Positions 15,752 to 56,376 of a DNA stretch of 64,000 nt are shown piece by piece. The notes under the pieces were generated by a model. The model was given only the letters and a program-made list of their open reading frames with translations. It did no database searches and was not told the DNA's origin. The position numbers and the translations under genes are program-made. Source of the stretch: Candidatus Enterousia sp. (GTDB lineage: Bacteria; Pseudomonadota; Alphaproteobacteria; Rs-D84); contig JAZNAO010000006.1 in NCBI GenBank assembly GCA_045586565.1, positions 1,457 to 65,456 on the forward strand, written 5' to 3'. The first letter of the stretch is position 1. The number at the start of each line of letters is the position of its first letter.

Positions 15752-15752
15752 A

Positions 15753-25591: not shown

Positions 25592-25617
25592 AAAAACGGC
25601 ATGACGCCGTTTTTTTA
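25590..25617. terminator. Bidirectional terminator between uvrD and the VirB6-like operon
   Basis: A-run, then ACGGC-ATGAC-GCCGT hairpin, then T-run. Confidence 0.65.
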
Positions 25618-30801: not shown

Positions 30802-30869
30802 TCTCTCTTTTTATTTTTATCTTTTCAATTATATCACATTTAATGCAAAATATGGTATACTTAAAAACA

Positions 30870-34090: not shown

Positions 34091-34358
34091 ACATTTGTCG
34101 GTGGGATTTTTCACCGATGGGGTGTGGAAACCCGTTATCTAAGCGTCTATGCACGATTGCATAACGCGCCAATGGCGTGTTTTTTGTGCAGTGTATGGAT
34201 GAAAATTTTTTTCTCCTGATCTTATGTGGTCAGGAGGGCTGCGAATATATTGAATAAGCACACAATTCTTAGATATTGTTTCCAACCTCCTGGCCACCTA
34301 TCTTTTATGGTGGTTTTTGTTTAATTTGCGTATGCAGAACGAAAGGGAGGAAAGTAAT
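34091..34358 (+). promoter_or_regulatory. Conserved structured leader (attenuator-like), copy A
   Basis: Hairpins at 34098-34117 and 34120-34133, and hairpin plus T-run at 34164-34185. Alternative segments: S1 34213-34221, S2 34226-34238, S3 34286-34298, S4 plus T5 34309-34318. Conserved in copies B and C. Confidence 0.6.
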
Positions 34359-35102
34359 ATGCAAAAATTTTTAAAACTAACCGGCGTATCAGTTTTGGCA
34401 ATCGTTGCCGCAACGGGCGCCAATGCCGCGGGATACACCTGTGAAGAATTGATTGAATACACAGCATGTAATGATGGGTGGTATTTAAACGATGGTGATT
34501 GTATAGAAAGCACAACATGTCCATCGGGCAGTTATTTACGTCCGTTTTGTTCAGTGAGCGATTGTGGTGTGAGTTATGATTCTGAGACCGAAGAATATAC
34601 TTGTTGTGATGGTGATTATGTTGCAAACCTGGAATGCATACAATGCCCATCTGTTGGTCTGACTGACAAAGACGGCAAAGTGGTGTCGGTTAAATCACAG
34701 CCTGGCTCAATGGGTGTTGGTTCGTGCTATATTGACCCGAATGCATATTTCAAGGATAGCACGGGGACATATCATTATAAGTCCAATTGTTCTGTGCGTT
34801 TCTGGGAAACATCCCCAGACACAGAAGAAGAATGTACCAGTCTTGGTTTTGAATGGGTATATACAAGTGGTGAATCAGATTCTTATTATGTTTGTGCGTT
34901 GAACATGCGGATTAGTGAACAGTTGGGTTTAATAAAGACAGAAGAAGAATGTAACGCGGCAGCTGAAAAAATATATGGCTTGGTATGGAAAGATGAAGGA
35001 GATTATTATTATTCCAGATGCGAAACCATAAACTACGAAGAGAGTTACTTTATTTTTAGGGATGAATGGTATGTTTTTGGTGATCCTATTTCTCACTCCT
35101 AA
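34359..35102 (+). CDS. Secreted Cys-rich protein, family member A (247 aa)
   Basis: RBS GGGAGGAAAG and signal peptide ...ATGANA|AGYTCEELIEYTAC. Shares the N-terminal module and the CP..GLTDKDG...SC.ID...F.D..G.Y.YK..C module with the protein at 55429. Confidence 0.75.
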   Translation: MQKFLKLTGVSVLAIVAATGANAAGYTCEELIEYTACNDGWYLNDGDCIESTTCPSGSYLRPFCSVSDCGVSYDSETEEYTCCDGDYVANLECIQCPSVGLTDKDGKVVSVKSQPGSMGVGSCYIDPNAYFKDSTGTYHYKSNCSVRFWETSPDTEEECTSLGFEWVYTSGESDSYYVCALNMRISEQLGLIKTEEECNAAAEKIYGLVWKDEGDYYYSRCETINYEESYFIFRDEWYVFGDPISHS

Positions 35103-35105
35103 AAT

Positions 35106-35134
35106 AAAAAATCCCGCAATCGCGGGATTTTTTA
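35106..35134. terminator. Bidirectional terminator between Cys-rich gene A and fabZ
   Basis: A-run, then ATCCCGC-AATC-GCGGGAT hairpin, then T6. Confidence 0.75.
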
Positions 35135-35569
35135 AACTGCCTTTTGTAATACTGCGGTAAAGGTTGATTCTGCGACCTTTTTACCACCCACAAATGCAAT
35201 TCCGTGGAATTTATACAATTTCATCTTGGTCATCAATAATTCAACATGCAATTCCAACTTATCGCCCGGGTGCACCATATGTGAAAACTTAATCTTTTCC
35301 ATTGTGGTAAAATACCCCAATGTATCTTTGCGTTCCGCCTCTGACAGACGCGCAAACGCAACATAGCATGCGGTCTGGGCCAACGCTTCGATTTGCAATA
35401 CGCCCGGCATAATCGGATTGCCAGGAAAATGGCCCGTGCACCAGAATTCGTCATCGCGGACATATTTTACACCAACCGCACTGGTGTCATTATATTCACG
35501 AATTTCGTCCACCAACCGCATGTCCCCGCGATGTGGTATAACTTTTTCGATTTCTTTTGCATCAATCAT
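35132..35569 (-). CDS. fabZ: 3-hydroxyacyl-ACP dehydratase FabZ
   Basis: PHRGDMRLVD and GHFPGNPIMPGVLQIEALAQ. Confidence 0.92.
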   Translation of the reverse strand: MIDAKEIEKVIPHRGDMRLVDEIREYNDTSAVGVKYVRDDEFWCTGHFPGNPIMPGVLQIEALAQTACYVAFARLSEAERKDTLGYFTTMEKIKFSHMVHPGDKLELHVELLMTKMKLYKFHGIAFVGGKKVAESTFTAVLQKAV

Positions 35570-35742
35570 TCGATATTCCTTTCCTATTATTTTTGTTTAG
35601 ACAACATCCAACTTTCAATTATAATTTTTGTCTGTGGTTTTAACAATTGATTATCAGTTTGCATTTTTTGCAAAATGCGTTTTGGTGGATAAATATAAAT
35701 AATATTTTTATTTCTATTGTCTATCATTTTTGTGTGAATTGC

Positions 35743-36786
35743 TTATTTCTTGGCGTTTTTACGCAACCATGCATAGTGACGCATAAATTCGGTTCCCGGA
35801 CCCGCCGGATATCCCATATGTGATTCGCCGTCTGGGATATTGCGGAAAACACCACTGTTCGCACCAACAGATGCGTCGTTTCCAATCTTAACACCGTTTG
35901 CGACACCAACATGCCCACCCAATAACGCGCGGTCACCAACAACCACACCACCCGCCAGGCCAACGCCACTGGCCAAGAAACATTCTTTACCAATAACAAC
36001 CCCGTGTGCAATCTGGCACAGGTTATCAATTTTTGTTCCGTCGCCAATTGTTGTGTCTGTCATTGCGCCACGATCAATACATGTGTTTGCGCCGACCGAT
36101 ACGCGTTCGCCAATAACAACGCGCCCAACATGTGGGATAAATATATTTTTACCATTTTGGCGTGTGTATCCAAAACCGTCTTTGCCAATAACTGCATTTG
36201 CATTTATCACAGAATCTGCGCCAATTGTGGCGTTTTCAATATGCGCGCCACTGTGCACGATTGTATTGCGCCCCAAAACAACATTGCGTCCGATAAATGC
36301 GCCTGGATAAATCTTGACCCCGGGTTCAATCGCCGCGCCACGTTCAATTGTTGCAAATTGCCCGACATAATTTGTGCGTTTTTTGCGGAAAAATACACCA
36401 CGGTCCAGGTGTGCGTTCTTGCTGATACCAAAGCGTGGTTTTTCGCGATAAATTTCACCCAAAATTTTAACGATATTTCCGCGTGGGCTGTCTGTAATCA
36501 ACAGTGTGGCACCCTTTGGCGCATGTTTTGCCATTTCTGGCTGTACCAAAATCACGGTTGCGCGTGTTTTCTGTAAAACTTCAATTGGTAATATTTTGAA
36601 CGCATTGCTGTTTTGTTCTGTGGAATAGAACGCCAATTGCCCCGCACGCGCATCGGCAATCGGCGCCACCCCGCGCACAGGTTCGCTTGCATTACCGCGT
36701 AATTCCAGACCAAATTTGGTCGCCAAAGCCCCGGCTGTGGTTTTGTTTGCCGCCGGTGAAAACAAAGATCTTAATATTTTCATCAT
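35743..36786 (-). CDS. lpxD: UDP-3-O-acylglucosamine N-acyltransferase LpxD
   Basis: Left-handed beta-helix hexapeptide repeats, LpxD-type N-terminal domain, and lpxD-fabZ synteny. ATG 36786 is preferred over the GTG at 36825. Confidence 0.88.
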
Positions 36787-36849
36787 AGTGAACCGATTAT
36801 AGATAAAAAAAATTCTATATTCCACAATTTTATGACATGTATTTTTTTC

Positions 36850-36877
36850 TTGTAATTTTGCGATTCGTATATATAAT
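36850..36877 (+). promoter_or_regulatory. Putative nusA promoter
   Basis: TTGTAA (36850-36855), a 16-nt spacer, then TATAAT (36872-36877). Confidence 0.4.
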
Positions 36878-36906
36878 AAAAGACGTTCTTAAATAAAATT
36901 TTAAGG

Positions 36907-36932
36907 GCGGGGTTGAAAAACCCCGCTCTTTC
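36907..36932 (+). promoter_or_regulatory. Terminator-like hairpin in the nusA 5' leader
   Basis: GCGGGGTT-GAAA-AACCCCGC (8-bp stem, GNRA loop) followed by TCTTTC. It lies between the putative promoter and the nusA RBS. Confidence 0.45.
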
Positions 36933-36967
36933 AGTAAGACATACAATAAATGCAAAGGAGTATATAA

Positions 36968-38506
36968 ATGTCTTTCGTATCGATGCCTCGTCAAGACTTG
37001 TTGTTGGCTATTGATTCTTTGGCCACAGAAAAGATGATTGATCGTGAAATTGTTATTGAATCATTAGAGGCGGCAATCGCTAAAATTGCAAAGCACAAAT
37101 ATGGCGAAGAGTTTAATATCACTGCTGAAATTGATCGCAAAAATGGTGCAATTTATGTAAAACGTTTGTTTGATGTAATTGAATCGCCTGAATCTGTTGG
37201 TGAAGAATATGATGCAAACACAATGTTGACTGTGGCCCAGGCAAAAAAATACTCACAAAATCCATCTGTGGGCGATGTTGTCGAAGATTCTTTGCCAGAA
37301 CCAGAATTTGGTCGTATGGCATTCCAAACGGCAAAGCAAATTATGACTGCGCGCGTTCGTGATGCAGAAAAAGGTCGTCAATATGAAGAATTCAAAGATA
37401 ATATCGGTGATATCATCAGCGGTGTTGTTAAACGCATCGAATTTGGTAATGTTTTTGTTGATATCAATGGCAAGGCCGAAGGTTATATCAAAAGCACAGA
37501 ATTGATTCCTGGTGAACGCTTGGCGGTTGGCGATCGTGTTCGTGCATTGATTATGGATGTTGCACGTTCTAATACAGGTCCCCAGATTTTCTTGACGCGC
37601 ACACATCCAATGTTTATGGAAAAATTGTTTGTCCAAGAAGTGCCTGAAATTTACGAAGGTATCATTAAAATTAAATCTGTATCACGTGCGCCGGGGTCCC
37701 ACGCAAAGATTGCGGTTGAAACCAGCGACCCATCAATTGATGCGGTTGGTATGACTGTTGGTATAAAGGGAACACGTATTCAACCTGTTATCAACGAATG
37801 CCACGGTGAAAAGATTGACGTTATATTGTATTCCGAAGACCCTGCTGTATTTATCGTAAATGCGATGCAGCCTGCCAAGGTCGCTAAAATCATCGTTGAC
37901 GAAGATACACGCAGTGCGGCTGTTGTTGTAAATGAAGATCAACAGTCTTTGGCAATTGGTCGTCGTGGTCAGAATGTTCGTCTGGCGTCTCAATTGACGG
38001 GATGGAATATTGATGTTATGAACGAAACCGAAGAACAAGAACGTCGTGCCAAAGAATTCAAAGAAAAGACAGAACTGTTTATCGGTGGTCTGGACGTTGA
38101 TGAAATGATTGCGCAATTATTGATTACCGAAGGTTTCCGCACAATCGAAGAAATCGCATTTGTTGATATTTCTGAATTGGAAGAAATCGAAGGCTTTAAC
38201 CCAGAATTGGCGGCAGAATTACAGAAACGCGCCAAAGATTATCTGAACAAAATCGAACAAGATTATATTGATAATGGTCATGCGCTGGGTATGTCTGATG
38301 ATTTGTTGAAATTTGACTTTATCAAGCGTCCAACAATCATGAAACTGGGCCAGGCCGGCATCAAATCATTGGAAGATTTGGCAGATTTGGCCACAGATGA
38401 ATTGATTGAAATCTTGGGCGAAGATACAATGTCTAATCGTTTGGCAGGGCGTGTTATTATGAAGGCACGTGAAATCGCATACGATATTAAACAGGACGAC
38501 GAATAA
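36968..38506 (+). CDS. nusA: Transcription termination/antitermination factor NusA
   Basis: S1 and KH regions (IGRRGQNVRLASQLTGWNIDV) and C-terminal acidic repeats. RBS AAAGGAG. Confidence 0.95.
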   Translation: MSFVSMPRQDLLLAIDSLATEKMIDREIVIESLEAAIAKIAKHKYGEEFNITAEIDRKNGAIYVKRLFDVIESPESVGEEYDANTMLTVAQAKKYSQNPSVGDVVEDSLPEPEFGRMAFQTAKQIMTARVRDAEKGRQYEEFKDNIGDIISGVVKRIEFGNVFVDINGKAEGYIKSTELIPGERLAVGDRVRALIMDVARSNTGPQIFLTRTHPMFMEKLFVQEVPEIYEGIIKIKSVSRAPGSHAKIAVETSDPSIDAVGMTVGIKGTRIQPVINECHGEKIDVILYSEDPAVFIVNAMQPAKVAKIIVDEDTRSAAVVVNEDQQSLAIGRRGQNVRLASQLTGWNIDVMNETEEQERRAKEFKEKTELFIGGLDVDEMIAQLLITEGFRTIEEIAFVDISELEEIEGFNPELAAELQKRAKDYLNKIEQDYIDNGHALGMSDDLLKFDFIKRPTIMKLGQAGIKSLEDLADLATDELIEILGEDTMSNRLAGRVIMKAREIAYDIKQDDE

Positions 38507-38581
38507 AATGTTATCAGTGCAAGGTTCATAATTTGAACTTTGCACTTTGAACTTTTAACATTATGAACGGAGTGAATTTAT

Positions 38582-40990
38582 ATGGCAACATTAACACTTG
38601 GAAAATCTGTAACAACTGACGCGGTCCGCAGCAAGAAAGGCGACGCGGTGTTCGTTGAACGCCGTCGTCGTGTTGTTGCACCAAACAGCAAGGAATTACG
38701 CGATGAACCTGTTGTGCCATCTGCACCCAAAAATGCTGCAGATGAAAAATTGCGTGCTGTTTTGGCGGCGGCCAAGGCGCGTGAAGAAGAACGCAAAGCA
38801 CGCGAAGCCGAAGAGGCAGCTGCGGCTGCTGCGCGTGCCGCAGAAATTGAACGTGAAAACCGCGAATATGAACAGGTTAAATCACAATTGGCGGCCCGCG
38901 AAAACGCAGGTGCTAATGTGAACGATGTTGCCGAAGAACCTGTGGCGCAACGCAACACAAAACATTCTGCCACGCCAAAGGTGTTTGTGAACAATGCTGT
39001 CGCAGGACAGGGGCGTAAAAATCGCAATAATGACGATGAAGATACGCACCATAATAAATTCAACAATTCAAAAAAAGATTTTAAAAAGTCTGGTAAAATT
39101 CATTTGCATGATATTGTTATGGGCGATGGTGATGATGACGATGAAATTGGGATTCGTGGTGCAAATCGTCGCCGTTCCGAAGCGTCTTTAAAACGTTTTC
39201 GTGAAAAAGCACGTGCAATATTTTCTGCCCCACAAAAGGTTGAACATGTTGTCACATTGGGTGATACGATTACGGTCAAAGACCTGGCGGCGGCAATGGC
39301 AGAAAAGGTTGGTAATGTTATCAAGAAACTGATGGAAATGGGAATGATGGTGTCTGTGAATCAGTCTATTGATGCGGATACTGCTGAACTTATCGCGGGT
39401 GAATTTGGTGCGACCGTTAAACGTGTTGATGTCAAACCATATGCAGACCAACTTGAACGCGAACCGAATCCAGAAAATCTGACACCACGTGCGCCAGTTG
39501 TGACGGTTGTGGGACACGTTGATCACGGCAAGACATCATTGCTGGACGCGTTCCGTAATGCTAATGTTGCGGCCGGCGAAGCAGGGGGTATTACCCAACA
39601 CGTATCATCGTATGAGGTTAAAACAAAATCTGGCGCAATGATTACGTTCTTGGATACACCGGGTCACGAAACATTTACAGCAATGCGCGCACGTGGTGCC
39701 CAGATGGCAGATATTGTTGTTTTGGTTGTTGCGGCAAACGATTCCATTATGCCACAAACAATCGAAGCAATAAATCACATCCGTGCGGCGAACGTTCCGT
39801 TTATAGTTGCAATCAACAAAATCGATTTACCCGAAGCAAATGCGTTGCGCGTAAAAACAGACCTGTTGCAACAAGAAGTTCAGGTTGAAGAAATGGGTGG
39901 TGATGTTCAATGTGTTGAAATTTCTGCAACCAAAAAAATCGGTTTGGATAAACTGGAAGAAGCGATTTTATTGCAGGCCGAAATGATGGAATTAAAAGCA
40001 GATGCACAAATGCCTGCGGTTGCATATGTGGTCGAAGCCAAACAAGAAAAAGGTTTGGGGGCGGTTGCAACTGTTTTAATGCGCCAAGGTACATTGAAAA
40101 TTGGTGATGTGTTTGTGGTTGGTGAAACATTTGGTCGTGTTCGCGGATTGATAAATTCGTCTGGTGAACGCGTGAAATCTGTGCGCCCTGGTCAGCCTGC
40201 GGTTGTTTTGGGATTGAATACCGTGCCAGGGGCTGGGGATGAATTGCGTGTCATGGAAACCGAAGCGCAAACACGTGAAGTGGCGGCATATCGTGCCCAG
40301 AAAACTAAAGACAAGGCAAACGCTGTTAAACGTTCGTCTTTGGAAGAATTATTCGCCAAACGTGACGAAACGAAAAAATTGATTTTGCCAATAATCTTGC
40401 GTGCAGATGTTCAAGGTTCTGTCGAAGCAATTACAGATATGGTCAAAGAAATAAATACTGATAAGGTCGGTGTAGAAGTTCTGTCGTCTGGTGTTGGTCA
40501 AATTACCGAAGGTGATATACGTTTGGCAACGGCATCTGGGGCTGTAATTATTGCGTTTAACGTCCGTGCAGATTCTGTTGTGCGTGATATGGCACGCAGT
40601 AATGGTGTTGATATTCGCTATCACAGTGTTGTATATCGTATCACAGATGAAATCAAAGAAATACTGTCTGGCAAATTGGCGCCTGAAAAACATGAAACGT
40701 TTATTGGGTATGCCGATGTTATCGCGTTGTTTACTGTGGGCAAGGGTATACGTGTTGCCGGATGTCGCATGACCGAAGGTGTAATCAAGAAAGATGCGTT
40801 CGTACGTTTGTTGCGTAATAATGTCGTTATATATGACGGCAAAATCGGACAACTGCGTCGTGAAAAGAACGAAGTCAAAGAAGTGTCTGGTGGCGTTGAA
40901 TTCGGTATGTCTTTTGACAAGTATAATGACTTGAAAGAAGGCGACCGCGTTGAATGTTACGAGGTTGAAGAAGTTCGTGCACAAATATAG
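38582..40990 (+). CDS. infB: Translation initiation factor IF-2
   Basis: G-domain motifs [20 protein letters not shown] and NKID. nusA-infB synteny. Confidence 0.95.
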
Positions 40991-41005
40991 CCCAAGGATA
41001 AATAA

Positions 41006-41602
41006 ATGTTAAAAAAAACCACAGTCGTTTTGTTCGATTTTGATGGCACATTATCATGTCGCGATTCAAATGTTGCATTTGCAAAATATTGTTTCCGCCA
41101 CAGTATTCGTCCATGGTTTTTTCTGCCGCTGATGGGTGTATGCGCGATATCGCGTTTGTTTGTGCCTGATGGTATTTGGTGGCGTGAAAACATTCGTCGT
41201 TTTTTGACACCGCAAATGGTTAAAAAATTTGCGCCTGGATTTATCAAACAGCATAAATTGGAACGATTTGGGTGGGCCAAAGAACGTGTGCAATCTGAAC
41301 GTGATGCTGGTCACAAGGTTTTAATGGTTTCGGCCAGTCCTGATTACCTGTTGCGTCCATTGGTTCGCGATATGAAATTCGATGCGGTATTTTGTTCTGA
41401 AATGGACAAGCAGAAACCATGGAAATACGAATTTTTATGCTGGGGTAAAAACAAGGTTTTGATTATGGACGAATGGGCCAAAGAAAATAAAATTATTCCA
41501 CATGTAATTCGTGCATATTCGGACAGCAAATCAGATTTACCAATGATGGAAATCGCCGAAGAACAGGTCTGGATTGATCCGAAAACAGGTATGCGAAAAT
41601 AA
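41006..41602 (+). CDS. HAD-superfamily (subfamily IB-like) phosphatase
   Basis: Motif I LFDFDGTLS, a Ser/Thr motif (VSASP), and a C-terminal YSDSKSD. Confidence 0.6.
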   Translation: MLKKTTVVLFDFDGTLSCRDSNVAFAKYCFRHSIRPWFFLPLMGVCAISRLFVPDGIWWRENIRRFLTPQMVKKFAPGFIKQHKLERFGWAKERVQSERDAGHKVLMVSASPDYLLRPLVRDMKFDAVFCSEMDKQKPWKYEFLCWGKNKVLIMDEWAKENKIIPHVIRAYSDSKSDLPMMEIAEEQVWIDPKTGMRK

Positions 41603-41642
41603 ACCCAGTGTTTTAATTATTTGTTCGTGTTAAAGTGTTTCT

Positions 41643-41900
41643 ATGGCATTGATAGAAACACTTTTTGATTTATTGGTGGCATCTGCGGGTGCGATTGTCG
41701 GTGTGTTGTTTGGATTGTTCCTGGAACGTAAACGGCGTCGCCAAATGGCAAATCAATTGATTGTCAGTCGTCAAACATTGGATAAAGTAAAATTGGAAAA
41801 CGAACGATTATTGGAAACAATACGCGAAAAAGAAAATCTGATTTTACAAATGGAAATGCAAATTCTGGGACGGCGTTCGCGCGCACGAAAAAAGAAATAA
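41643..41900 (+). CDS. Small membrane-anchored coiled-coil protein (85 aa)
   Basis: One N-terminal TM helix, a basic patch, then heptad-like helical sequence. Function unknown. Confidence 0.35.
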   Translation: MALIETLFDLLVASAGAIVGVLFGLFLERKRRRQMANQLIVSRQTLDKVKLENERLLETIREKENLILQMEMQILGRRSRARKKK

Positions 41901-41938: not shown

Positions 41939-43984
41939 ATGAAATTAAAGAAATTTTTTCGATTTTTATTGAATTTTTTCTTTTGGGCGTTTGTTGTTGG
42001 AATCGCGTCTTTGGCGGTATTGATTTTAATATATGGAAATGATTTGCCTGATTATAAAAAATTGGCAACGTATGCGCCACCGGTTGCGACACGTCTGTAT
42101 GCGTCTGATGGCTCATTGTTGATTGAATATGCCGAAGAACGTCGTGTGTTTATTGATTATGCAGATATGCCGTCTCAGTTGGTCAATGCGTTTATTGCGG
42201 CCGAAGATCAAAATTTCTGGACACATCCTGGCATTGATATCCAGGGTATTTCACGTGCGTTGGTAAACAATGCGATGCGTATGGTGGGGTATGATACGAC
42301 TTTATCTGGTGCATCCACAATAACACAACAGGTGGCAAAAAATTTCTTTTTAACATCAGAACGCACGATATCGCGCAAAATTAAAGAAGCGATTTTGGCA
42401 TTGCGTCTGGAACGCACATTTTCCAAAGAACATATTTTAACATTGTATATGAATCAGATATTCTTGGGTGCACGTGCATATGGTGTTGGTTCTGCGGCAT
42501 TGATGTATTTTAATAAACCTGTATCTGAATTGACGTTGGCAGAATGTGCGTTTTTGGCATCTTTGCCCAAGGCACCAAATAATCGCACCCGTGCGGTTGA
42601 ACGTCGTAATTATGTTCTGCGACGTATGGTCGAAGAAGGTTTTATTACACAATCTGATGCAGATGTGGCCGCGTCCGAAGAATTAAATATCAACAGTGGT
42701 TTTACCGCCCAGATGGCCGAAGAATTCCAATACTTTGCCGAAGATGTTCGCCGTCAATTGTTGGGGACATTGGGACGTGAAACACTGTATAATCAGGGTT
42801 TGTATATAAAAACAACAATTGTTCCTGAATTGCAAATTGCGGCCTCTAATGCGCTGAACAAAGAATTGGATGCGTATAACACCGGTCGTAATGAAGATGA
42901 TAAATTACAAGGTGCGATAATTGCCATGAATCCACATACGGGTCGTATTGTGGCAATGGCGGGCGGTCGTTCTTTTAACGACAGTTCGTTTAACCGCGCC
43001 ACCCAGGCATATCGTCAAATTGGTTCAACAATAAAACCGTTTGTATACTTGGCGGCGTTGGAACGTGGATATACGCCACAAACAATGATTTTGGATGCAC
43101 CAATTGTTGGCTGGCGCGAAGATGACACGTTGTGGAAGCCTGAAAATTATGACAAGAAATTCTTGGGCGATGTGCCGTTGCGTTTGTCGTTGGAAACATC
43201 ACGTAATGTTCCGACGGTTCGTCTGGTGGAACAGATTGGTACCCAAAACGCGATTGAGGTGGCCCAGCGTTTCGGTGTATATCCCGCCGATATGAAGAAT
43301 ATGAATTTATCAATGGCATTGGGTTCTGGTGAAACAACATTGGAAAAATTAGTTTTGGGGTATTCGGCATTTATCAATGGCGGTCGTGCGATAAAATCCA
43401 AATTGGTTGACTATATCGAAGACAGATATGGACGTGTTATTGATGGCGCGTCACTGGATTTGGTTGAATGGACTGACGATTTAACGCCACCTGAAATGGT
43501 TGTTGAATCTGAACCATTATCTGATGCGCACAGTTTGTATCAAATGGTGTCTATTTTACAGGGTGCAGTTGAACGTGGCACCGGGAAACAAGCGCGTGTA
43601 TCTGGACATACAATTGCGGGCAAGACAGGTACCACAAATGATGTCAAAGATGTTTGGTTTATCGGTTTTTCCAAAGATTTAATTGCGGGTGTATACCTGG
43701 GGTTTGACACACCAAAGCCTTTGGGGCGTGGTGCGGGTTCGCATATGGCTGCGCGCGTTTTTGCAGATTTTATGCGTGTTGCGTTGGCTGATGCCAAGAA
43801 TCAGCCTTTTTCGGTTCCAGATGGCCTGACATTTATGCGTGTCAATCGGCGCAGTGGGGCATCTGCCACCGCGGACCCGGATGGGACAATTATCTTAGAG
43901 GCATTCAAGCCTGGTCAATCACCAAATCCTGCACCAAAACAAAAAACGGCTGTCAAAGGACCTGTGGTTGGCGGTGTGTTTTAA
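41939..43984 (+). CDS. mrcA: Penicillin-binding protein 1A (bifunctional transglycosylase/transpeptidase)
   Basis: GT51 motifs EDQNFWTHPGID and RKIKE. Transpeptidase motifs STIKP, SRN and KTGTTN. ATG 41939 is preferred over TTG 41930. Confidence 0.88.
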   Translation: MKLKKFFRFLLNFFFWAFVVGIASLAVLILIYGNDLPDYKKLATYAPPVATRLYASDGSLLIEYAEERRVFIDYADMPSQLVNAFIAAEDQNFWTHPGIDIQGISRALVNNAMRMVGYDTTLSGASTITQQVAKNFFLTSERTISRKIKEAILALRLERTFSKEHILTLYMNQIFLGARAYGVGSAALMYFNKPVSELTLAECAFLASLPKAPNNRTRAVERRNYVLRRMVEEGFITQSDADVAASEELNINSGFTAQMAEEFQYFAEDVRRQLLGTLGRETLYNQGLYIKTTIVPELQIAASNALNKELDAYNTGRNEDDKLQGAIIAMNPHTGRIVAMAGGRSFNDSSFNRATQAYRQIGSTIKPFVYLAALERGYTPQTMILDAPIVGWREDDTLWKPENYDKKFLGDVPLRLSLETSRNVPTVRLVEQIGTQNAIEVAQRFGVYPADMKNMNLSMALGSGETTLEKLVLGYSAFINGGRAIKSKLVDYIEDRYGRVIDGASLDLVEWTDDLTPPEMVVESEPLSDAHSLYQMVSILQGAVERGTGKQARVSGHTIAGKTGTTNDVKDVWFIGFSKDLIAGVYLGFDTPKPLGRGAGSHMAARVFADFMRVALADAKNQPFSVPDGLTFMRVNRRSGASATADPDGTIILEAFKPGQSPNPAPKQKTAVKGPVVGGVF

Positions 43985-44052
43985 TTCGTATAATACCATT
44001 TGTTTATTCAAAGTTTTGTGATAGAATGTTTGCATAAGGAAAGGATTTTATT

Positions 44053-45141
44053 ATGCTGACGGATTATTTTTTTAATTATGGATTGTCATTTTTTGCCAGT
44101 GGTTGGACTCAGTTTGCTGGTGGTTTCTTTGTTGCATTTTTAACACTTTTGTTGCTGGGCAAACCGTTTATCGGTGCGATGCATGTGTTACAGAAAAAAG
44201 GACAACCAATCAGTGAAAATGTTCCAAATGCCCATCGTAAAAAGGCGGGGACCCCAACAATGGGGGGGCTGTTGATTATTTTTGCAATTGTTTTGGGCAG
44301 TATTTTATTTATGCCATTGTCAAATCCAACAGGTTGGATTGCGTTGGCGGCACTGATAATGTTCGGCGCATTGGGTTTTGTTGATGATTATAAAAAGGTT
44401 GTATCTCAATCCAAAAAGGCAGCAAACGGTCTGTCGCCATTTACGCGTTTGTTTGTCGAAGGTATATTTGTCGTTATCTTGGCGTATTTGATAAATCAAA
44501 CAATGCCACCATATATTCCGGAATATTCGTTGGCAATTGGCGCAGGTATAATTTTGCCGTTGGGGTTATTATATTATATTTTTGCATATTTTGTAATTTG
44601 TGGCAGTGCCAATGCCACCAACATCACAGATGGTTTGGATGGTATGTTGGCAAAGTTATATATGCCTGTATTGGTTGTTTTGGTTGTGGCGCTATATGGT
44701 GCAACGCGTATTGGATTTATGGATACGGTAATGTTCTTGCCGATGGCCAGTGGTCTGTATGCAGTTCTGGGGGCGGCATTTGGCGCAGTGTTGGGTTTTC
44801 TGTGGTATAATGCTAAGCCTGCATCGATATTTATGGGGGACGTTGGTTCATTGGCGTTGGGCGGATTTATGGGAACGGTTGCAATGTTGTTAAAGTCTGA
44901 AATTATTATGGGGATTGCTGCCGGTATGATGGTTTTGATTTTACTGTCATCATTTATCCAGACAATGTATTTCAAGATCACGCGCAAATTGACTGGTACC
45001 GGTCGCCGTGTGTTCTTGCGCGCACCATTGCATCATCATTTTGAAGAATTAGGGTGGGCCGAAACAAAAATCGTAGAGCGCTTTTTCGTATTGTCTATTC
45101 TGTTTTCTGGATTGGCACTGGTATTATTAAAATTTGCATAA
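44053..45141 (+). CDS. mraY: Phospho-N-acetylmuramoyl-pentapeptide transferase
   Basis: NATNITDGLDG and HHHFE motifs in a ten-TM layout. Confidence 0.92.
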   Translation: MLTDYFFNYGLSFFASGWTQFAGGFFVAFLTLLLLGKPFIGAMHVLQKKGQPISENVPNAHRKKAGTPTMGGLLIIFAIVLGSILFMPLSNPTGWIALAALIMFGALGFVDDYKKVVSQSKKAANGLSPFTRLFVEGIFVVILAYLINQTMPPYIPEYSLAIGAGIILPLGLLYYIFAYFVICGSANATNITDGLDGMLAKLYMPVLVVLVVALYGATRIGFMDTVMFLPMASGLYAVLGAAFGAVLGFLWYNAKPASIFMGDVGSLALGGFMGTVAMLLKSEIIMGIAAGMMVLILLSSFIQTMYFKITRKLTGTGRRVFLRAPLHHHFEELGWAETKIVERFFVLSILFSGLALVLLKFA

Positions 45142-45157
45142 ATATAGTTGTATCGCA

Positions 45158-46315
45158 ATGAAGTTTGTAGACCGCACAGAAGAAAGTACTTTGACCAGTT
45201 GGTATTTTGAAACAGATCGTCGTCTGTTGTGGTGTGTGCTGACAATGATTTTGTTGTCGGTCGTGTTTGTTATATCGGCCGGTTCAATCAAGGCCGAACA
45301 TATGGGCGAAGCATGGTATTATTTTCTGGTCAAGGCGATACCATTTTACACACTGGGTATAATAACATTATTGATAACCAGTTTTTTAAATAAAAAGCAG
45401 GTGTTATGGTTGGCGGGTGCAAATTTGGCGTTTGGGTTGGGGTTATTGCCACTAACGGTTGTTGCGCCACATGTTATAAATAACTCTGCGCGATTTGTGT
45501 CGCTGGGCGGATTTAATATTATGCCGTCGGACATTATGAAGCCTGGCTTTATTATTATGACCGCGTATTTTTTATCGCGTATGAAAGATCGATATGGCGC
45601 GAATATATTCTTTAACAAAGACGCGTGGCGATTTGACACGTGGCTAAGTTGGGTGTATTACCTGGCATTATTTTTATTGGTCTTGTTCGTGATATTTAAT
45701 CATCCAGACTTTGGAACATCTATTTTATATTTGGCGGTATTTTCTGCGATGATATTTATTGCAGGACTACCACTGGTTTTAATCCCAGTATTGGGCGGAT
45801 TGGGACTGTTTATGTTGGTTGTTGCGTTCTTTACGCTGGGGCACGTCCATCGTCGTATAATTGCGTTCTTTACAGGTTCTGGTGACACGTACCAGGTTGA
45901 TAATTCTGTTGATTCAATTCGTCATGGTGGGCTGTTGGGGTCTGGTGATGACGCGTTTGTAAAACAATACCTGCCTGACGTTCATACAGACTTTATCTTT
46001 GCGGCCATCGCCGAAGATTTAGGTGCGATAATGGCGTGTGGTTTATTGGTATTACTGTTTTATGTTTTTCGTCGTTTAATAAAGAATGCAACCAATGCGC
46101 GTGATTTGTTTGTATTATATGCCACAGGTGGCACGGCGGCATTATTCGGCACCCAGATATGTTTTAACATGTTGACAACATTAAATCTGTTTGCGCCCAA
46201 AGGTATGACATTGCCATTTATATCATACGGTGGCAGTTCGCTGTTGGCATATTGTCTGCTGTTTGGGATGATATTGGCTCTAATTCGTGAAGATAAATGG
46301 AAATCAAAGGAATGA
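45158..46315 (+). CDS. ftsW: Cell division/peptidoglycan polymerase FtsW (SEDS family)
   Basis: PDVHTDFIFAAIAEDLG and ...PFISYGGSS motifs. ATG 45158 is preferred over TTG 45134. Confidence 0.85.
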   Translation: MKFVDRTEESTLTSWYFETDRRLLWCVLTMILLSVVFVISAGSIKAEHMGEAWYYFLVKAIPFYTLGIITLLITSFLNKKQVLWLAGANLAFGLGLLPLTVVAPHVINNSARFVSLGGFNIMPSDIMKPGFIIMTAYFLSRMKDRYGANIFFNKDAWRFDTWLSWVYYLALFLLVLFVIFNHPDFGTSILYLAVFSAMIFIAGLPLVLIPVLGGLGLFMLVVAFFTLGHVHRRIIAFFTGSGDTYQVDNSVDSIRHGGLLGSGDDAFVKQYLPDVHTDFIFAAIAEDLGAIMACGLLVLLFYVFRRLIKNATNARDLFVLYATGGTAALFGTQICFNMLTTLNLFAPKGMTLPFISYGGSSLLAYCLLFGMILALIREDKWKSKE

Positions 46316-46319
46316 TGCT

Positions 46320-47363
46320 ATGAAAATATGGATTGCAACGGGTGGTACAGGCGGACATGTATTTCCGGCCCTTAGTGTCGCTGAGTGCTTGGTTGCGCGT
46401 GGGCATCGTGTGACAATTTCGTGTGATGGTCGTGTGCATGAAATGGTGCGTCATGATATGCCACGTGGGGCGCATATATCGCATGTATGGGCGTCAGGTG
46501 TTGGTGCAAAAAGTCGTTTAAAACAAATGTGGGCATTGTTTAAAATTGGCGTTTCTGCAGTTACTTTAACCTTGCGTTTTATGGTGTTCCGTCCAGATCG
46601 TGTTGTGGCATTTGGCGGATATGCATCTGTTGCGCCAGTGTTTGCAGCGCATGTTTGGCGTGTTCCAACATTTCTGCATGAACAGAACGCGGCAATTGGT
46701 CGTGCGAATAAGTTTACAATGCGTTGGGTAAAAACATTGATGACCAGTTTTCCGTCTGTATCTGGCATTCCGCAAAATGGTGTTCGTGTTGTTTATACAG
46801 GATTACCGGTGCGTCATGATTTTTTAAGTGCGACCGGTGCGCCGCTGCCAAACGCATCACGTCTGTTGGTGACGGGTGGTTCTTTGGGGGCGCAAATACT
46901 GGACGATATTGTTCCGGGTGCTGTCGCTGCAATGAAAAATAAAAAGATTTTTGTGACGCATCAAACGCGTCCAGAAAATGTTGCGCGATTGCAAAAATTC
47001 TATGCGGACAATAAAATCCGTGCAAATGTATTGTCGTTTATTCATGATATGGCGGGCGCGATTGTTGGTGCTGATTTGGTAATTGGGCGCAGTGGCGCCA
47101 GCACAGTTGTTGAATTGCAAACAATTGGTCGTCCGGCAATATTGGTTCCGTTGGGAATCAATCCTGACCAGGCGGCAAACGCGGCATCTTTTGCAAAGTC
47201 TGGGGGTGGTTTTGCGATAGAGCAATCTAAATTTACATTGCGTTGGTTGACATCAACGTTGTGTGATTTGTTTGATAATCCATCGCGTTTGAACAAGATG
47301 GCGCAAAAAGCATTGGTGCCAAATAATGCGGTTGATTTAATTTGTGACGAAGTAACAAAATAA
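46320..47363 (+). CDS. murG: UDP-N-acetylglucosamine--LPS/lipid I N-acetylglucosamine transferase MurG
   Basis: MKIWIATGGTGGHVFPALSVA N-terminus. ATG 46320 lies just after the ftsW stop. Confidence 0.9.
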   Translation: MKIWIATGGTGGHVFPALSVAECLVARGHRVTISCDGRVHEMVRHDMPRGAHISHVWASGVGAKSRLKQMWALFKIGVSAVTLTLRFMVFRPDRVVAFGGYASVAPVFAAHVWRVPTFLHEQNAAIGRANKFTMRWVKTLMTSFPSVSGIPQNGVRVVYTGLPVRHDFLSATGAPLPNASRLLVTGGSLGAQILDDIVPGAVAAMKNKKIFVTHQTRPENVARLQKFYADNKIRANVLSFIHDMAGAIVGADLVIGRSGASTVVELQTIGRPAILVPLGINPDQAANAASFAKSGGGFAIEQSKFTLRWLTSTLCDLFDNPSRLNKMAQKALVPNNAVDLICDEVTK

Positions 47364-47395
47364 AAAAAAATTCCGGTGTTGCCGGAATTTTTTAT
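47362..47395 (+). terminator. Intrinsic terminator after murG
   Basis: AATTCCGG-TGTTG-CCGGAATT hairpin followed by a T-run. Confidence 0.75.
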
Positions 47396-47452: not shown

Positions 47453-48733
47453 ATGCGTCATATTACAATCAGTATATTGTCTGCACTGGTTACTGTGCCT
47501 GCGTTTGCAGCGGCGGGGTTGCCAGTGGTAAACATTGCGTCTGGCGGTGTTTCTGCGCGCAGTGCGTTTGGCGAATCGGTTCCTGTGGAACGCGGTGTTT
47601 CTGTTGCGCCTGTGGTGCAAAATATTGCAACGCGTCCTGTTGTTGCGCGTGTTTCGACAATAAAACCTGTGGCGCCATCTGTTGATACTGGTGATACAAT
47701 TATTTCGTCAAACGATGTCTTGATGCCTCGTCGCCCCAGTGCTGATTTGTGGGCCAAGAATGATGTGGCGTTACGTATGCCAACACCTGATGAATTTTCC
47801 GTTATTCGGACTGATACAGTTTTACCAGAGGAGAGACTGGACCAACAATCATCACAACAATTTGCAATCAGTTCGCCGTCACCTGATGTTGTATCACGTG
47901 AATCGGTCGCGATGTCTGAAATTGATAATCAGATTGTGCGCTTGGCGCAATTGCAGCAACGTGCCGATGACAGTGTCCGTAATGTTTCGCCGCGTGTAAT
48001 TGCGGCACCGATTGCGGAAATGAAAACCGTCGCACCAACCGCAATCGCATCAAATGAATCTGCAAATGTATCGTCACCTGTATCGTTACGTCGTATGGTT
48101 GTTCCGATGGAAACGCCAGATGTTGTGGTGCGCAGTGTTGAAAAAAATATTTCGCCACGTATTGCATCTGTCCGTGACGATATGACAAAAATGACCCCGG
48201 CCCAGTTGCGCCAGGCGTTCAGAAAAACTTTTTTGTCAGAAAACAAGCATTTGTCCACATATTCTGTTGACGATCGATTTGATGTGGCCAGTGATATGTC
48301 GTCGTCTATCGAAGGCTTTACTGCGCGTCGTAATTTGTCTGAAACCGGTGGCATTCGCGCATTAGAAATCAAAATAAATTTCCGCAACGATGATTCTTCA
48401 TTGTCGCGTGATAATTATAATCTGTTATCAGAATACGCGGGTATTGTCATAAATGATCCAAAGCGTGCGATTCAGATTGCAATACCACAAGGTATGACTG
48501 TGGGAACGGATACGCGTAAATTGGCAGCGCGTCGTTTGGCAATTGTTGAACAAGTCTTGACAGATAACGGTGTATCAAAACAGCGTATTGTTCCTGTATT
48601 GTCATCGCGTAATGAACAGGGTTTTGTTCTGCGTATTATATCCAGTGATGAATACGAAACATTGACCCAGCAAAAACACGATATTTTCGGTGACACGGTT
48701 GGGAAAAAGACTTATAAAAGTATGTCGTGGTAG
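47453..48733 (+). CDS. Secreted protein with weak C-terminal OmpA-like domain (426 aa)
   Basis: Signal peptide ...VPAFA|AAG. The C-terminal ...RKLAARRLAIVEQVLTDNGVSKQRI resembles the OmpA/MotB peptidoglycan-binding core but lacks GHTD. Confidence 0.45.
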   Translation: MRHITISILSALVTVPAFAAAGLPVVNIASGGVSARSAFGESVPVERGVSVAPVVQNIATRPVVARVSTIKPVAPSVDTGDTIISSNDVLMPRRPSADLWAKNDVALRMPTPDEFSVIRTDTVLPEERLDQQSSQQFAISSPSPDVVSRESVAMSEIDNQIVRLAQLQQRADDSVRNVSPRVIAAPIAEMKTVAPTAIASNESANVSSPVSLRRMVVPMETPDVVVRSVEKNISPRIASVRDDMTKMTPAQLRQAFRKTFLSENKHLSTYSVDDRFDVASDMSSSIEGFTARRNLSETGGIRALEIKINFRNDDSSLSRDNYNLLSEYAGIVINDPKRAIQIAIPQGMTVGTDTRKLAARRLAIVEQVLTDNGVSKQRIVPVLSSRNEQGFVLRIISSDEYETLTQQKHDIFGDTVGKKTYKSMSW

Positions 48734-55156: not shown

Positions 55157-55428
55157 TCTTTTGTCGATGGGATTTTTCATCGATGGGGTGTCAAGACCCG
55201 TTTCATTGGCGTTCATGCACGATTGCATAACACGCCATGTGGCGTATTTTTTATGCGATATGTGTATGGGTGATAAATTACTCCTGACCCGTGGTCAGGA
55301 GGGCTGTGAATATATTGAATAAGCACACAATTCCAATGATTGTCTTGAACCTCCTGGCCACCTTTTGTGAAAAACGGTGGTTTTTTGTTTATTTTGGCAA
55401 ACAAAACAAAGGAAAAGGAGAGTTTGTT
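55157..55428 (+). promoter_or_regulatory. Conserved structured leader, copy C
   Basis: H1 carries a compensatory change (TCGATG/CATCGA). Hairpin plus T-run at 55232-55252. Segments: S1 55281-55289, S2 55291-55303, S3 55350-55362, S4 plus T6 55376-55386. Confidence 0.6.
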
Positions 55429-56376
55429 ATGAAAAAAATTTTATTGAGCGGTGCGTCAATCCTGGCAATTATCGCCACCACAAACGCAAATGCCGCCGGA
55501 TATACCTGTGAAGAATTGATTGAATATACATCGTGTAATACGGGATATTATCTAAATGATGGTGATTGTATCCCGGGCAATACATGCCCTGCCGGGAATT
55601 ATTTACAAGGTGTATGTCCAGATGGGTATGAGTATTCTGACACTTGGAGCGTTGAGAATGGTGCAATTGTTTGGGTTAACAATATTACACAAGCAGAGTG
55701 TGAAAATGAAGGAGACTACTGCACTTGGTACGGCGCAGGGTGCCTTATTACAGATGCGGATCCATTTATGGTGGACGATGGATTTATTTCGGCGACAGGA
55801 TATGAATGCACTGCGTGCGCGGCTGGTTCATATCAACCATCTGCGGGTCAATATGAATGTATAACATGTCCGGCGGGGGCATATTGCGGAACGACCGGAT
55901 TGTCCGCTGTATCTGGCCAGTGTGCCAAGGGGACTTATTCGCATGGTGGTGCTGTATCATGTGCCGCATGTCCGGCGACGGGACTGACCGATAAAGATGG
56001 TGCGGTTGTTGTTGCAACAACGCCGACGGCTGGTGCAACGACGATCTCGTCGTGTGTAATTGATGATACGGTTTATTTCAGGGATACCAAAGGTGTATAT
56101 CGTTACAAACAGGATTGTGTATTGCTTGGTGATATAACAGGCACTAACGCTGCAGAGTGTGAATGGGTGGCAGAAATAACCGGTGAAGATTGGAATATGT
56201 TTAATGATGCTTGTAGTTTTAATACCGAAGGAACAACGATTTTGGCACCAGCGACAGAATCTGAATGCCTTGATTTAGGTGGTGATTGGGACACTTATTT
56301 TGAAGAAGGAAAATGCCATTGTGATGGTTGGGTGTGGTATATTAAAGAAGGAAAATTGATGTGTGGGACAGTATAA
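55429..56376 (+). CDS. Secreted Cys-rich protein, family member C (315 aa)
   Basis: RBS AAAGGAGAG and signal peptide ...TTNANA|AGYTCEELIEYTSC. Contains the ephrin-receptor-like/GCC2-GCC3-like stretch CTACAAGSYQPSAGQYECITCPAGAYC...CAKGTY...CAACP. Confidence 0.78.
   Translation: MKKILLSGASILAIIATTNANAAGYTCEELIEYTSCNTGYYLNDGDCIPGNTCPAGNYLQGVCPDGYEYSDTWSVENGAIVWVNNITQAECENEGDYCTWYGAGCLITDADPFMVDDGFISATGYECTACAAGSYQPSAGQYECITCPAGAYCGTTGLSAVSGQCAKGTYSHGGAVSCAACPATGLTDKDGAVVVATTPTAGATTISSCVIDDTVYFRDTKGVYRYKQDCVLLGDITGTNAAECEWVAEITGEDWNMFNDACSFNTEGTTILAPATESECLDLGGDWDTYFEEGKCHCDGWVWYIKEGKLMCGTV

What the first reader, a model, noticed from the sequence alone, without database searches (positions are those of the whole stretch)
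41939..47363. Fragmentary dcw cluster: mrcA-mraY-ftsW-murG without murD, murC or fts genes
Seen in sequence: PBP1A is directly followed by mraY, ftsW (start ~16 nt after the mraY stop) and murG (4 nt after the ftsW stop), then a strong terminator and an unrelated secreted protein.

Established knowledge: the conserved order is mraY-murD-ftsW-murG-murC-murB-ddl-ftsQAZ.

The absence of murD between mraY and ftsW, and the truncation after murG, indicate extensive rearrangement, as seen in reduced endosymbiont genomes.
Basis: partly seen in the sequence, partly recalled or inferred. Interest (0 to 1): 0.25.

Follow-up and report, generated by a model that had tools for sequence, protein, structure and literature searches.

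The report
Conserved four-gene cell-wall operon remnant
A gut bacterium with a very small genome (Candidatus Enterousia) keeps four cell-wall genes (PBP1A, mraY, ftsW, murG) as one compact unit left over from the usual large division/cell-wall cluster; this is a real lineage-wide rearrangement but an ordinary kind of one.

Summary
A class A PBP (41939-43984), mraY (44053-45141), an FtsW-type SEDS gene (45158-46315) and murG (46320-47363) lie on the + strand. The spacers are 68, 16 and 4 nt, and a 13-bp hairpin terminator (47365-47393) follows. There is no room for murD. None of the other ~50 window genes encodes a Mur ligase, Ddl, MurB or an Fts protein.

The window comes from Candidatus Enterousia (Alphaproteobacteria, order Rs-D84). 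These are gut MAGs with 0.75-1.0 Mb genomes. The same order and strand occur in all 74 complete loci (73 relatives plus the window), although the block has 16 different left and 9 different right neighbours. This excludes assembly error and dates the arrangement to before the clade radiated.

All catalytic motifs are intact, and omega is about 0.05 in closely related pairs. The block is therefore a selected operon of the membrane steps of peptidoglycan synthesis, not decaying debris.

The rearrangement is real and the lineage does have a reduced genome. However, it is not a shown endosymbiont, and its conserved class A PBP is unlike wall-reduced intracellular bacteria. I could not locate the remaining dcw genes with these tools.

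In passing: ftsW diverges about twice as much as its neighbours, in clade-specific jumps.

Low interest.

The parts
41939..43984 (+). mrcA-like gene for a class A (bifunctional) penicillin-binding protein, 681 aa
   Evidence: TIGR02074 PBP_1a_fam scores 586 bits, above the cut-off of 509. Pfam finds Transgly and Transpeptidase domains. The best solved relatives are PBP1A chains 4oon, 3udf and 5u2g. Motifs present: EDQNFWTHPG, GASTITQQ, RKIKE, STIK, SRN, KTG. Mean pairwise identity across 77 loci is 0.82.
43985..44052 (+). 68-nt PBP1A-mraY spacer. It holds -10-like hexamers (TATAAT 43989-43994; TGaTAGAAT 44019-44027) and a Shine-Dalgarno-like AAGGAAAGGA (44038-44047). In 43 of 74 related loci this spacer carries a small MliC-like lipoprotein gene, which is absent here.
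   Evidence: Sequence read directly. The promoter reading is inference only; the consensus scan did not list these sites. The MliC-like gene in relatives comes (PF09864, 30.4 bits, above the cut-off of 22).
44053..45141 (+). mraY, phospho-MurNAc-pentapeptide translocase (makes lipid I), 362 aa
   Evidence: TIGR00445 scores 265 bits, above the cut-off of 192. Motifs present: KAGTPTMGG, DD, NATNITDGLDG, PLHHHFE. Relatives are 75-91% identical.
45158..46315 (+). ftsW-type SEDS peptidoglycan polymerase gene, 385 aa
   Evidence: FtsW TIGR02614 scores 229 bits against 168 for RodA TIGR02210; both lie below their cut-offs. Pfam FTSW_RODA_SPOVE scores 203 bits. Solved FtsW chains 8bh1 and 25hr score 117 bits against about 63 for RodA chains. 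The HTDFIF motif with the catalytic Asp is present. An intact 378-390 aa ORF occupies this slot in all 79 loci that hold both mraY and murG.
46320..47363 (+). murG, the GlcNAc transferase that makes lipid II, 347 aa
   Evidence: TIGR01133 scores 232.5 bits, slightly below the cut-off of 250. Pfam Glyco_transf_28 and Glyco_tran_28_C both pass. GGTGGH and GGSLG motifs are present.
47365..47393 (.). Intrinsic terminator hairpin. It is A-rich upstream and T-rich downstream, so it could act in both directions. It closes the operon.
   Evidence: The terminator scan finds 13 pairs on both strands. The RNA fold gives -15 kcal/mol, z = -4.8, with 0 of 200 shuffles as stable.

Best explanation
This is a lineage-specific, selectively maintained operon for the membrane-linked half of peptidoglycan synthesis. 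MraY makes lipid I and MurG makes lipid II. FtsW polymerises lipid II at the septum, and the class A PBP polymerises and cross-links.

The mraY-ftsW-murG core is a remnant of the ancestral alphaproteobacterial dcw cluster. murD was excised from it, and the upstream (mraZ...murF) and downstream (murC...ftsZ) parts were separated. A class A PBP gene came to lie upstream.

The arrangement arose before the radiation of the Candidatus Enterousia clade (order Rs-D84, genomes of about 0.75-1.0 Mb). It has been kept intact while the rest of the chromosome was heavily shuffled.

Shown: gene identities, intactness, invariance of order, purifying selection, the terminator.

Inferred: descent from a canonical cluster, co-transcription of mraY-ftsW-murG (16-nt and 4-nt spacers), and that the other dcw genes exist elsewhere in the genome.
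For: - Gene identities and full-length family matches; all catalytic motifs present.
- Organism identified from 80 species-level loci with 75-91% identical MraY, titled Candidatus Enterousia or Alphaproteobacteria MAG.
- Reduced genomes of this lineage (PMC12306168).
- In 74 of 74 complete loci the four genes have the same order and strand. mraY and ftsW are adjacent in 73 of 74, and ftsW and murG in 71 of 74. The block has 16 different left and 9 different right neighbours.
- lpxD, 5 kb upstream in the window, has at least five different neighbourhoods in six species. Background synteny is therefore poor and the block's invariance is informative.
- Nei-Gojobori omega is 0.043-0.068 for all four genes in 82-87 of 88 closely related pairs.
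- A strong terminator lies directly after murG.
- mraY, ftsW and murG keep the relative order and orientation of the canonical cluster mraY-murD-ftsW-murG (established knowledge; PMC10214165).
Against: - No outgroup with the canonical order was recovered, so descent by loss of murD is inferred rather than traced. All accessible relatives already have the derived order.
- Co-transcription is not shown. The 68-nt PBP1A-mraY spacer has -10-like hexamers, and most relatives have an extra gene there, so PBP1A may be a separate transcription unit.
- The remaining dcw genes were not found in 1.84 Mb of fetched (redundant) Enterousia DNA. Their presence elsewhere is assumed.
- The FtsW and MurG scores fall below NCBIfam equivalog cut-offs.
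Confidence: 0.8

Rival explanations
1. Assembly or binning artefact: the contig is chimeric and murD was lost at a misjoin between mraY and ftsW.
For: The window is from a metagenome-assembled genome. Its own contig is not in the indexed collection.
Against: The same junctions, with a short mraY-ftsW spacer and no intervening gene, occur in 73 independently assembled relatives from different studies and hosts. DNA identity runs continuously across the junctions.
Confidence: 0.01
2. The block was assembled secondarily by rearrangement and selection for co-expression, and is not a remnant of the ancestral dcw cluster.
For: The genome is heavily shuffled. The class A PBP gene is not a canonical dcw member, so at least one gene was recruited (established knowledge).
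Against: mraY, ftsW and murG sit in exactly the canonical relative order and orientation. That is improbable for independent re-assembly, and deleting one gene (murD) is the simpler path. No intermediate arrangements appear among 74 loci.
Confidence: 0.1
3. The lineage has lost the cytoplasmic Mur ligase pathway and/or the classical divisome. The four-gene block would then be all that remains, and precursors would be taken from partner cells.
For: No Mur ligase, Ddl, MurB, FtsZ, FtsA or FtsQ gene was found in the 64-kb window or in any fetched locus. The lineage lacks many biosynthetic pathways and is proposed to depend on a partner (PMC12306168).
Against: The fetched DNA is highly redundant and covers only part of a roughly 0.9-Mb genome. 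Strong purifying selection on MraY and MurG implies a supply of UDP-MurNAc-pentapeptide. No importer for that nucleotide precursor is known (established knowledge). The published survey reports RodA, MreB and MrdA and does not report loss of peptidoglycan synthesis.
Confidence: 0.04
4. The SEDS gene is rodA rather than ftsW. The block would then be an elongation or general wall-growth module, not a division-cluster remnant.
For: The FtsW equivalog score is below its cut-off (229 against 337.5). RodA also matches at 168 bits. NCBI names the orthologues only 'FtsW/RodA/SpoVE family'.
Against: The FtsW model outscores RodA by 61 bits. Solved FtsW chains score about twice as high as RodA chains (117 against 63 bits). 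JGI names orthologues FtsW. The position between mraY and murG is the canonical ftsW position. The published survey reports a RodA with MrdA and MreB in these genomes, which suggests a second SEDS gene.
Confidence: 0.07

Closest known systems
[quoted passage not shown]
   Same: mraY, ftsW and murG are on one strand, tightly spaced, in the canonical relative order. They have the same enzymatic roles (lipid I, septal polymerase, lipid II).
   Different: murD is absent between mraY and ftsW (16-nt spacer). No mur ligase, ddl, murB or fts gene lies upstream or downstream. A class A PBP occupies the upstream side, where the canonical order has the class B PBP ftsI followed by murE-murF. The block ends in a terminator after murG.
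Split or rearranged dcw clusters of Gram-positive and non-rod bacteria (described in general terms in PMC10214165). From memory: Streptococcus has pbp2x-mraY, with murD-murG-divIB elsewhere.
   Same: The cluster is broken into short sub-operons. A PBP gene lies directly upstream of mraY.
   Different: Here the PBP is class A, not class B. ftsW and murG stay with mraY. The lineage is a diderm alphaproteobacterium predicted to be rod-shaped (RodA, MreB and MrdA reported), the group in which the cluster is usually compact.
Peptidoglycan gene sets of reduced obligate intracellular bacteria (Wolbachia, Anaplasma, Orientia, Chlamydia), called 'peptidoglycan-intermediate' in PMC5814848
   Same: Small genome. 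Lipid II genes and a SEDS protein are retained.
   Different: Those organisms lack class A PBPs. Enterousia keeps one that is as conserved as MraY (mean identity 0.82), which predicts a classical sacculus. Enterousia is a gut-lumen MAG lineage, not a shown intracellular symbiont.

Membership tests
Canonical dcw cluster | murD lies between mraY and ftsW | tested here: not met
   The mraY-ftsW spacer is 16 nt. No gene sits in this position in 73 of 74 loci; the single 73-aa ORF in L057 is probably spurious.
Canonical dcw cluster | murC, murB, ddl and ftsQ-ftsA-ftsZ follow murG | tested here: not met
   A terminator follows murG, then a secreted protein and comF. No Mur ligase P-loop, FtsZ motif or tblastn hit was found in the window or in 98 loci.
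Canonical dcw cluster | mraZ-rsmH-ftsL-ftsI-murE-murF lie upstream of mraY | tested here: not met
   Upstream are nusA, infB, a HAD hydrolase, an 85-aa membrane protein and a class A PBP. Most relatives have suhB upstream of the PBP gene.
Canonical dcw cluster | mraY, ftsW and murG are co-oriented, in that relative order, and tightly spaced | tested here: met
   for the window; 74 of 74 loci.
MraY (TIGR00445) | Score above the curated cut-off, plus the catalytic Asp and His motifs | tested here: met
   265 bits against a cut-off of 192. DD, NxxNxxDGxDG and PLHHHFE motifs are present.
MurG (TIGR01133) | Score above the curated cut-off; both GT28 domains; G-loop motif | tested here: inconclusive
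   232.5 bits against a cut-off of 250.25, slightly below. Both Pfam GT28 domains pass and GGTGGH is present. Functionally it reads as MurG, from a divergent lineage.
FtsW (TIGR02614), as opposed to RodA | Score above the equivalog cut-off; closer to FtsW than to RodA; catalytic Asp | tested here: inconclusive
   229 bits against a cut-off of 337.5, so not met. It outscores RodA (168 bits). Solved FtsW chains score 117 bits against 63 for RodA. HTDFIF is present. A SEDS phylogeny was not done.
Class A PBP, PBP1A family (TIGR02074) | GT51 and transpeptidase domains with their motifs; score above the cut-off | tested here: met
   586 bits against a cut-off of 509. Domains, motifs, solved PBP1A relatives.
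Operon (single transcription unit) | Co-transcription of the four genes | not testable with these tools
   Only indirect evidence: 16-nt and 4-nt spacers, one strand, and a terminator after murG. The 68-nt PBP1A-mraY spacer may hold a promoter.

The most novel reading that the evidence does not exclude
Enterousia (order Rs-D84) may retain only this self-contained membrane-step module (class A PBP, MraY, FtsW, MurG). It would have lost the cytoplasmic Mur ligase pathway and/or the classical FtsQAZ divisome, and would build its wall from precursors obtained from partner cells. The clade-specific jumps in FtsW sequence would then reflect repeated re-adaptation of the septal polymerase.
Probability: 0.04. 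Interest if true: 0.75.

Novelty: new variant of a known kind. Interest (0 to 1): 0.2.

Why it matters
The arrangement shows which part of the division/cell-wall cluster stays linked when a diderm genome shrinks below 1 Mb and is heavily shuffled. The membrane steps (lipid I, lipid II, polymerases) remain together, while the cytoplasmic ligase genes do not stay with them.

It is also a predicted rod-shaped lineage with a broken dcw cluster. That runs against the reported link between rod shape and a compact cluster.

Both points are modest and descriptive. No new enzyme or mechanism is implied.

Tried and rejected
1. My first synteny run used an ftsW query that was one base out of frame (start 45159 instead of 45158). 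It gave a spurious 32-54% identity and 'missing' ftsW in several loci. A fragmented phmmer self-hit exposed the error. I corrected it, and all later numbers use the right frame.

2. I tried to locate murD, murC, murB, ddl and ftsQAZ:
- A P-loop and FtsZ-motif regex over all ORFs of 84 loci plus the window.
- Six look-ups of lpxD orthologues to sample other genome regions.

None found a dcw gene.

3. I looked for an outgroup that keeps the canonical order. The MraY scan and a search with the most divergent FtsW returned only members of the same clade.

4. The paper on Rs-D84 genomes has no held supplements, and the 2023 Enterousia paper is not held.

5. A single-sequence AlphaFold model of the C-terminal domain of the downstream secreted protein had pLDDT 38.6 and was not used.

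6. I considered relaxed constraint or pseudogenisation as the cause of ftsW divergence and rejected it. The ORFs are intact in all 79 loci that hold both mraY and murG, the catalytic Asp is kept in the nine alleles inspected (the window plus eight covering the most divergent groups), and omega is about 0.056 in close pairs.

7. I considered recent recombination islands for pairs in which FtsW is more similar than the flanks. DNA identity in ftsW is only slightly above the flanks, so this is not shown.
Full report
**What is in the sequence**

Four + strand ORFs fill 41939-47363:
- A 681-aa protein at 41939-43984.
- A 362-aa protein at 44053-45141.
- A 385-aa protein at 45158-46315.
- A 347-aa protein at 46320-47363.

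The spacers between them are 68, 16 and 4 nt. A 13-bp hairpin flanked by A and T runs sits at 47365-47393 (dG -15 kcal/mol, z = -4.8).

Family scans name the four genes:
- A PBP1A-family class A PBP: TIGR02074 at 586 bits (cut-off 509), with Transgly and Transpeptidase domains.
- MraY: 265 bits (cut-off 192).
- A SEDS protein closest to FtsW: 229 bits against 168 for RodA. Both are below their equivalog cut-offs.
- MurG: 232.5 bits against a cut-off of 250. Both GT28 Pfam domains pass.

Solved FtsW chains match the SEDS protein about twice as well as RodA chains do (117 against 63 bits). Solved PBP1A chains are the best matches to the first protein.

All signature catalytic motifs are present:
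- PBP1A: EDQNFWTHPG, GASTITQQ, RKIKE, STIK, SRN, KTG.
- MraY: KAGTPTMGG, DD, NATNITDGLDG, PLHHHFE.
- FtsW: HTDFIF.
- MurG: GGTGGH.

That these motifs mark the active sites is established knowledge, not something tested here.

A 16-nt gap cannot hold murD.

**Rest of the window**

About 50 further ORFs of at least 150 aa were scanned. They include nrdR, an SLT transglycosylase, rmuC, def, fmt, truA, comEC, pyrG, skp, dnaX, rluD, uvrD, suhB, lpxD, nusA, infB, comF, a class I aminoacyl-tRNA synthetase, gyrA and many proteins with no family hit. No Mur ligase, MurB, Ddl or Fts protein is among them. Rfam and ARAGORN find only one tRNA-Glu.

**Organism**

MraY has hundreds of 86-95% identical relatives labelled 'MAG: Alphaproteobacteria bacterium'. 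A scan of one genome per species returned 80 loci with 75-91% identical MraY. Most are titled Candidatus Enterousia or Alphaproteobacteria MAG, and they come from ruminant, horse, chicken, mouse and human gut.

Enterousia belongs to the uncultured order Rs-D84. Its MAGs are 0.75-1.0 Mb and lack most biosynthetic pathways and respiration. They are proposed to depend on partner cells, and they are reported to encode RodA, MreB and MrdA (PMC12306168).

**Conservation**

Among 74 loci that hold all four genes (73 relatives plus the window), order and strand are identical in every one:
- mraY and ftsW are adjacent in 73 of 74. The exception is a 73-aa ORF that is probably spurious.
- ftsW and murG are adjacent in 71 of 74. 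Three loci have an insertion of about 0.65 kb.
- The PBP1A-mraY spacer holds a small MliC-family lipoprotein gene in 43 of 74 (PF09864). The window lacks it.

The flanks, by contrast, vary. The block has 16 different left neighbours and 9 different right neighbours. In the window an 8-kb segment (lpxD, nusA, infB, HAD and others) separates suhB from the PBP gene; in most relatives suhB is the direct neighbour.

lpxD orthologues looked up in six other species sit in at least five unrelated neighbourhoods. The genome is therefore broadly shuffled, and the invariance of the block reflects selection or a functional unit. It is not an assembly artefact.

In 82-87 of 88 closely related pairs, omega is 0.043-0.068 for all four genes.

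**Interpretation**

The simplest reading is a remnant of the ancestral dcw cluster. mraY, ftsW and murG keep their canonical relative order. murD has been excised and both ends cut away. A class A PBP gene was recruited upstream. The arrangement was fixed before the clade radiated.

Functionally the block groups the membrane-linked steps: lipid I, lipid II and the two polymerases.

Co-transcription of mraY-ftsW-murG is inferred from the 16-nt and 4-nt spacers and the terminator. PBP1A may be a separate unit, because the 68-nt spacer contains TATAAT (43989-43994) and TGaTAGAAT (44019-44027) (inference only).

**Comparison with what is known**

The canonical cluster and its compactness in rod-shaped Gram-negatives are described in PMC10214165. 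This lineage is a predicted rod with a broken cluster.

Wall-reduced obligate intracellular bacteria keep lipid II genes, SEDS proteins and class B PBPs but lack class A PBPs (PMC5814848). Here the class A PBP is as conserved as MraY (mean pairwise identity 0.82 and 0.83). The 'reduced endosymbiont' analogy therefore holds for genome size but not for wall biology.

**What could not be done**

The other dcw genes were not located. The checks that came back empty were:
- A motif regex over all ORFs of 84 loci plus the window.
- The Pfam labels of the lpxD-centred loci.

The fetched DNA is redundant and covers only part of a genome. Absence from the lineage is therefore not shown, and I consider it unlikely. 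No outgroup with the canonical order was reachable.

**Side observation on ftsW**

After I corrected a frame error of my own, ftsW remains the most variable gene of the block:
- Its mean pairwise identity is 0.63 (minimum 0.41), against 0.77-0.83 for its neighbours.
- The divergence is discordant with the flanks. The group L005/L007/L009/L010/L012/L020/L065/L083 is 0.79-0.86 identical, gene by gene, to the window's group in the flanking proteins but only 0.53 in FtsW.
- For flank identity of 0.84-0.86, FtsW identity is bimodal.
- DNA identity between the window and L007 falls from about 0.82 to 0.55 at the mraY-ftsW border. It recovers in the last 300 bp of ftsW.
- Within clades FtsW is as constrained as its neighbours (omega 0.056).
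- The ORF is intact in all 79 loci that hold both mraY and murG. In the nine alleles inspected, the window plus eight that cover the most divergent groups, the termini are conserved and the catalytic Asp is kept.

This pattern points to clade-specific jumps, either allelic replacement or bursts of change, rather than relaxed constraint. It was only partly followed up.

**Verdict**

This is a lineage-specific variant of a well-known gene cluster, with no new mechanism implied. Interest is low (0.2).

Noticed in passing
window 45158-46315; L005-L084, slot between mraY and murG: ftsW diverges about twice as much as its neighbours: mean pairwise identity 0.63 against 0.77-0.83. The divergence comes in clade-specific jumps that disagree with the flanking genes. 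Within clades ftsW is under strong purifying selection, and the ORF is intact in all 79 loci that hold both mraY and murG.
   Followed up: partly
window 43985-44052; e.g. L045:9640-9945, L001:9643-9933: In 43 of 74 related loci a gene of about 100 aa for an MliC-family lipoprotein (a lysozyme inhibitor; PF09864, 30.4 bits) lies between the PBP1A gene and mraY. The window has only a 68-nt spacer there.
   Followed up: partly
L038:12333-13025, and the same position in L064, L070 and L078: An insertion of about 0.65 kb lies between ftsW and murG. It carries a roughly 230-aa ORF on the opposite strand with no Pfam hit. It is the only interruption of the ftsW-murG junction seen.
   Followed up: no
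window 47453-48733: The secreted 426-aa protein after the terminator has a long low-complexity N-terminal part. Its conserved C-terminal region of about 150 aa gives weak, sub-threshold OmpA-like matches: Pfam OmpA at E = 0.031, and profile hits to Pal, OprF and OmpA chains at E = 0.14-0.9. It may bind peptidoglycan. It travels with comF, not with murG.
   Followed up: partly
window 25615-32159; the related families labelled c13, c14, c15 and w30699 in L014-L081: A run of five ORFs of about 400-480 aa has no family hit. Sequences of the related families are multi-pass membrane proteins. Relatives carry the w30699 family in two copies and in both orientations. T4SS coupling-protein genes occur elsewhere in relatives (L091, L094), so these could be divergent secretion-system components.
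   Followed up: no
window 55291-56376: A 361-aa protein has an Ephrin_rec_like domain hit (PF07699, E = 1.5e-11). This is a eukaryote-type cysteine-rich repeat in a gut bacterium.
   Followed up: no
window 34317-41900, compared with L014, L021, L035 and others: In most relatives suhB directly precedes the PBP1A gene. In the window an 8-kb segment lies between them (a 261-aa ORF, fabZ-like, lpxD, nusA, infB, HAD and an 85-aa membrane protein). lpxD has at least five different neighbourhoods in six species, so genome-wide synteny in this clade is very poor.
   Followed up: partly
window 13174-17069: Three consecutive ORFs (452, 413 and 438 aa) have no NCBIfam hit. Three unannotated ORFs of similar size occupy the same position between rluD and dnaX in L094-L096.
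   Followed up: no
L085:13883-19992 and L086:13878-19679: A stretch of about 6 kb without called genes lies downstream of lpxD-fabZ in one species. It may be an rRNA operon; this was not checked.
   Followed up: no
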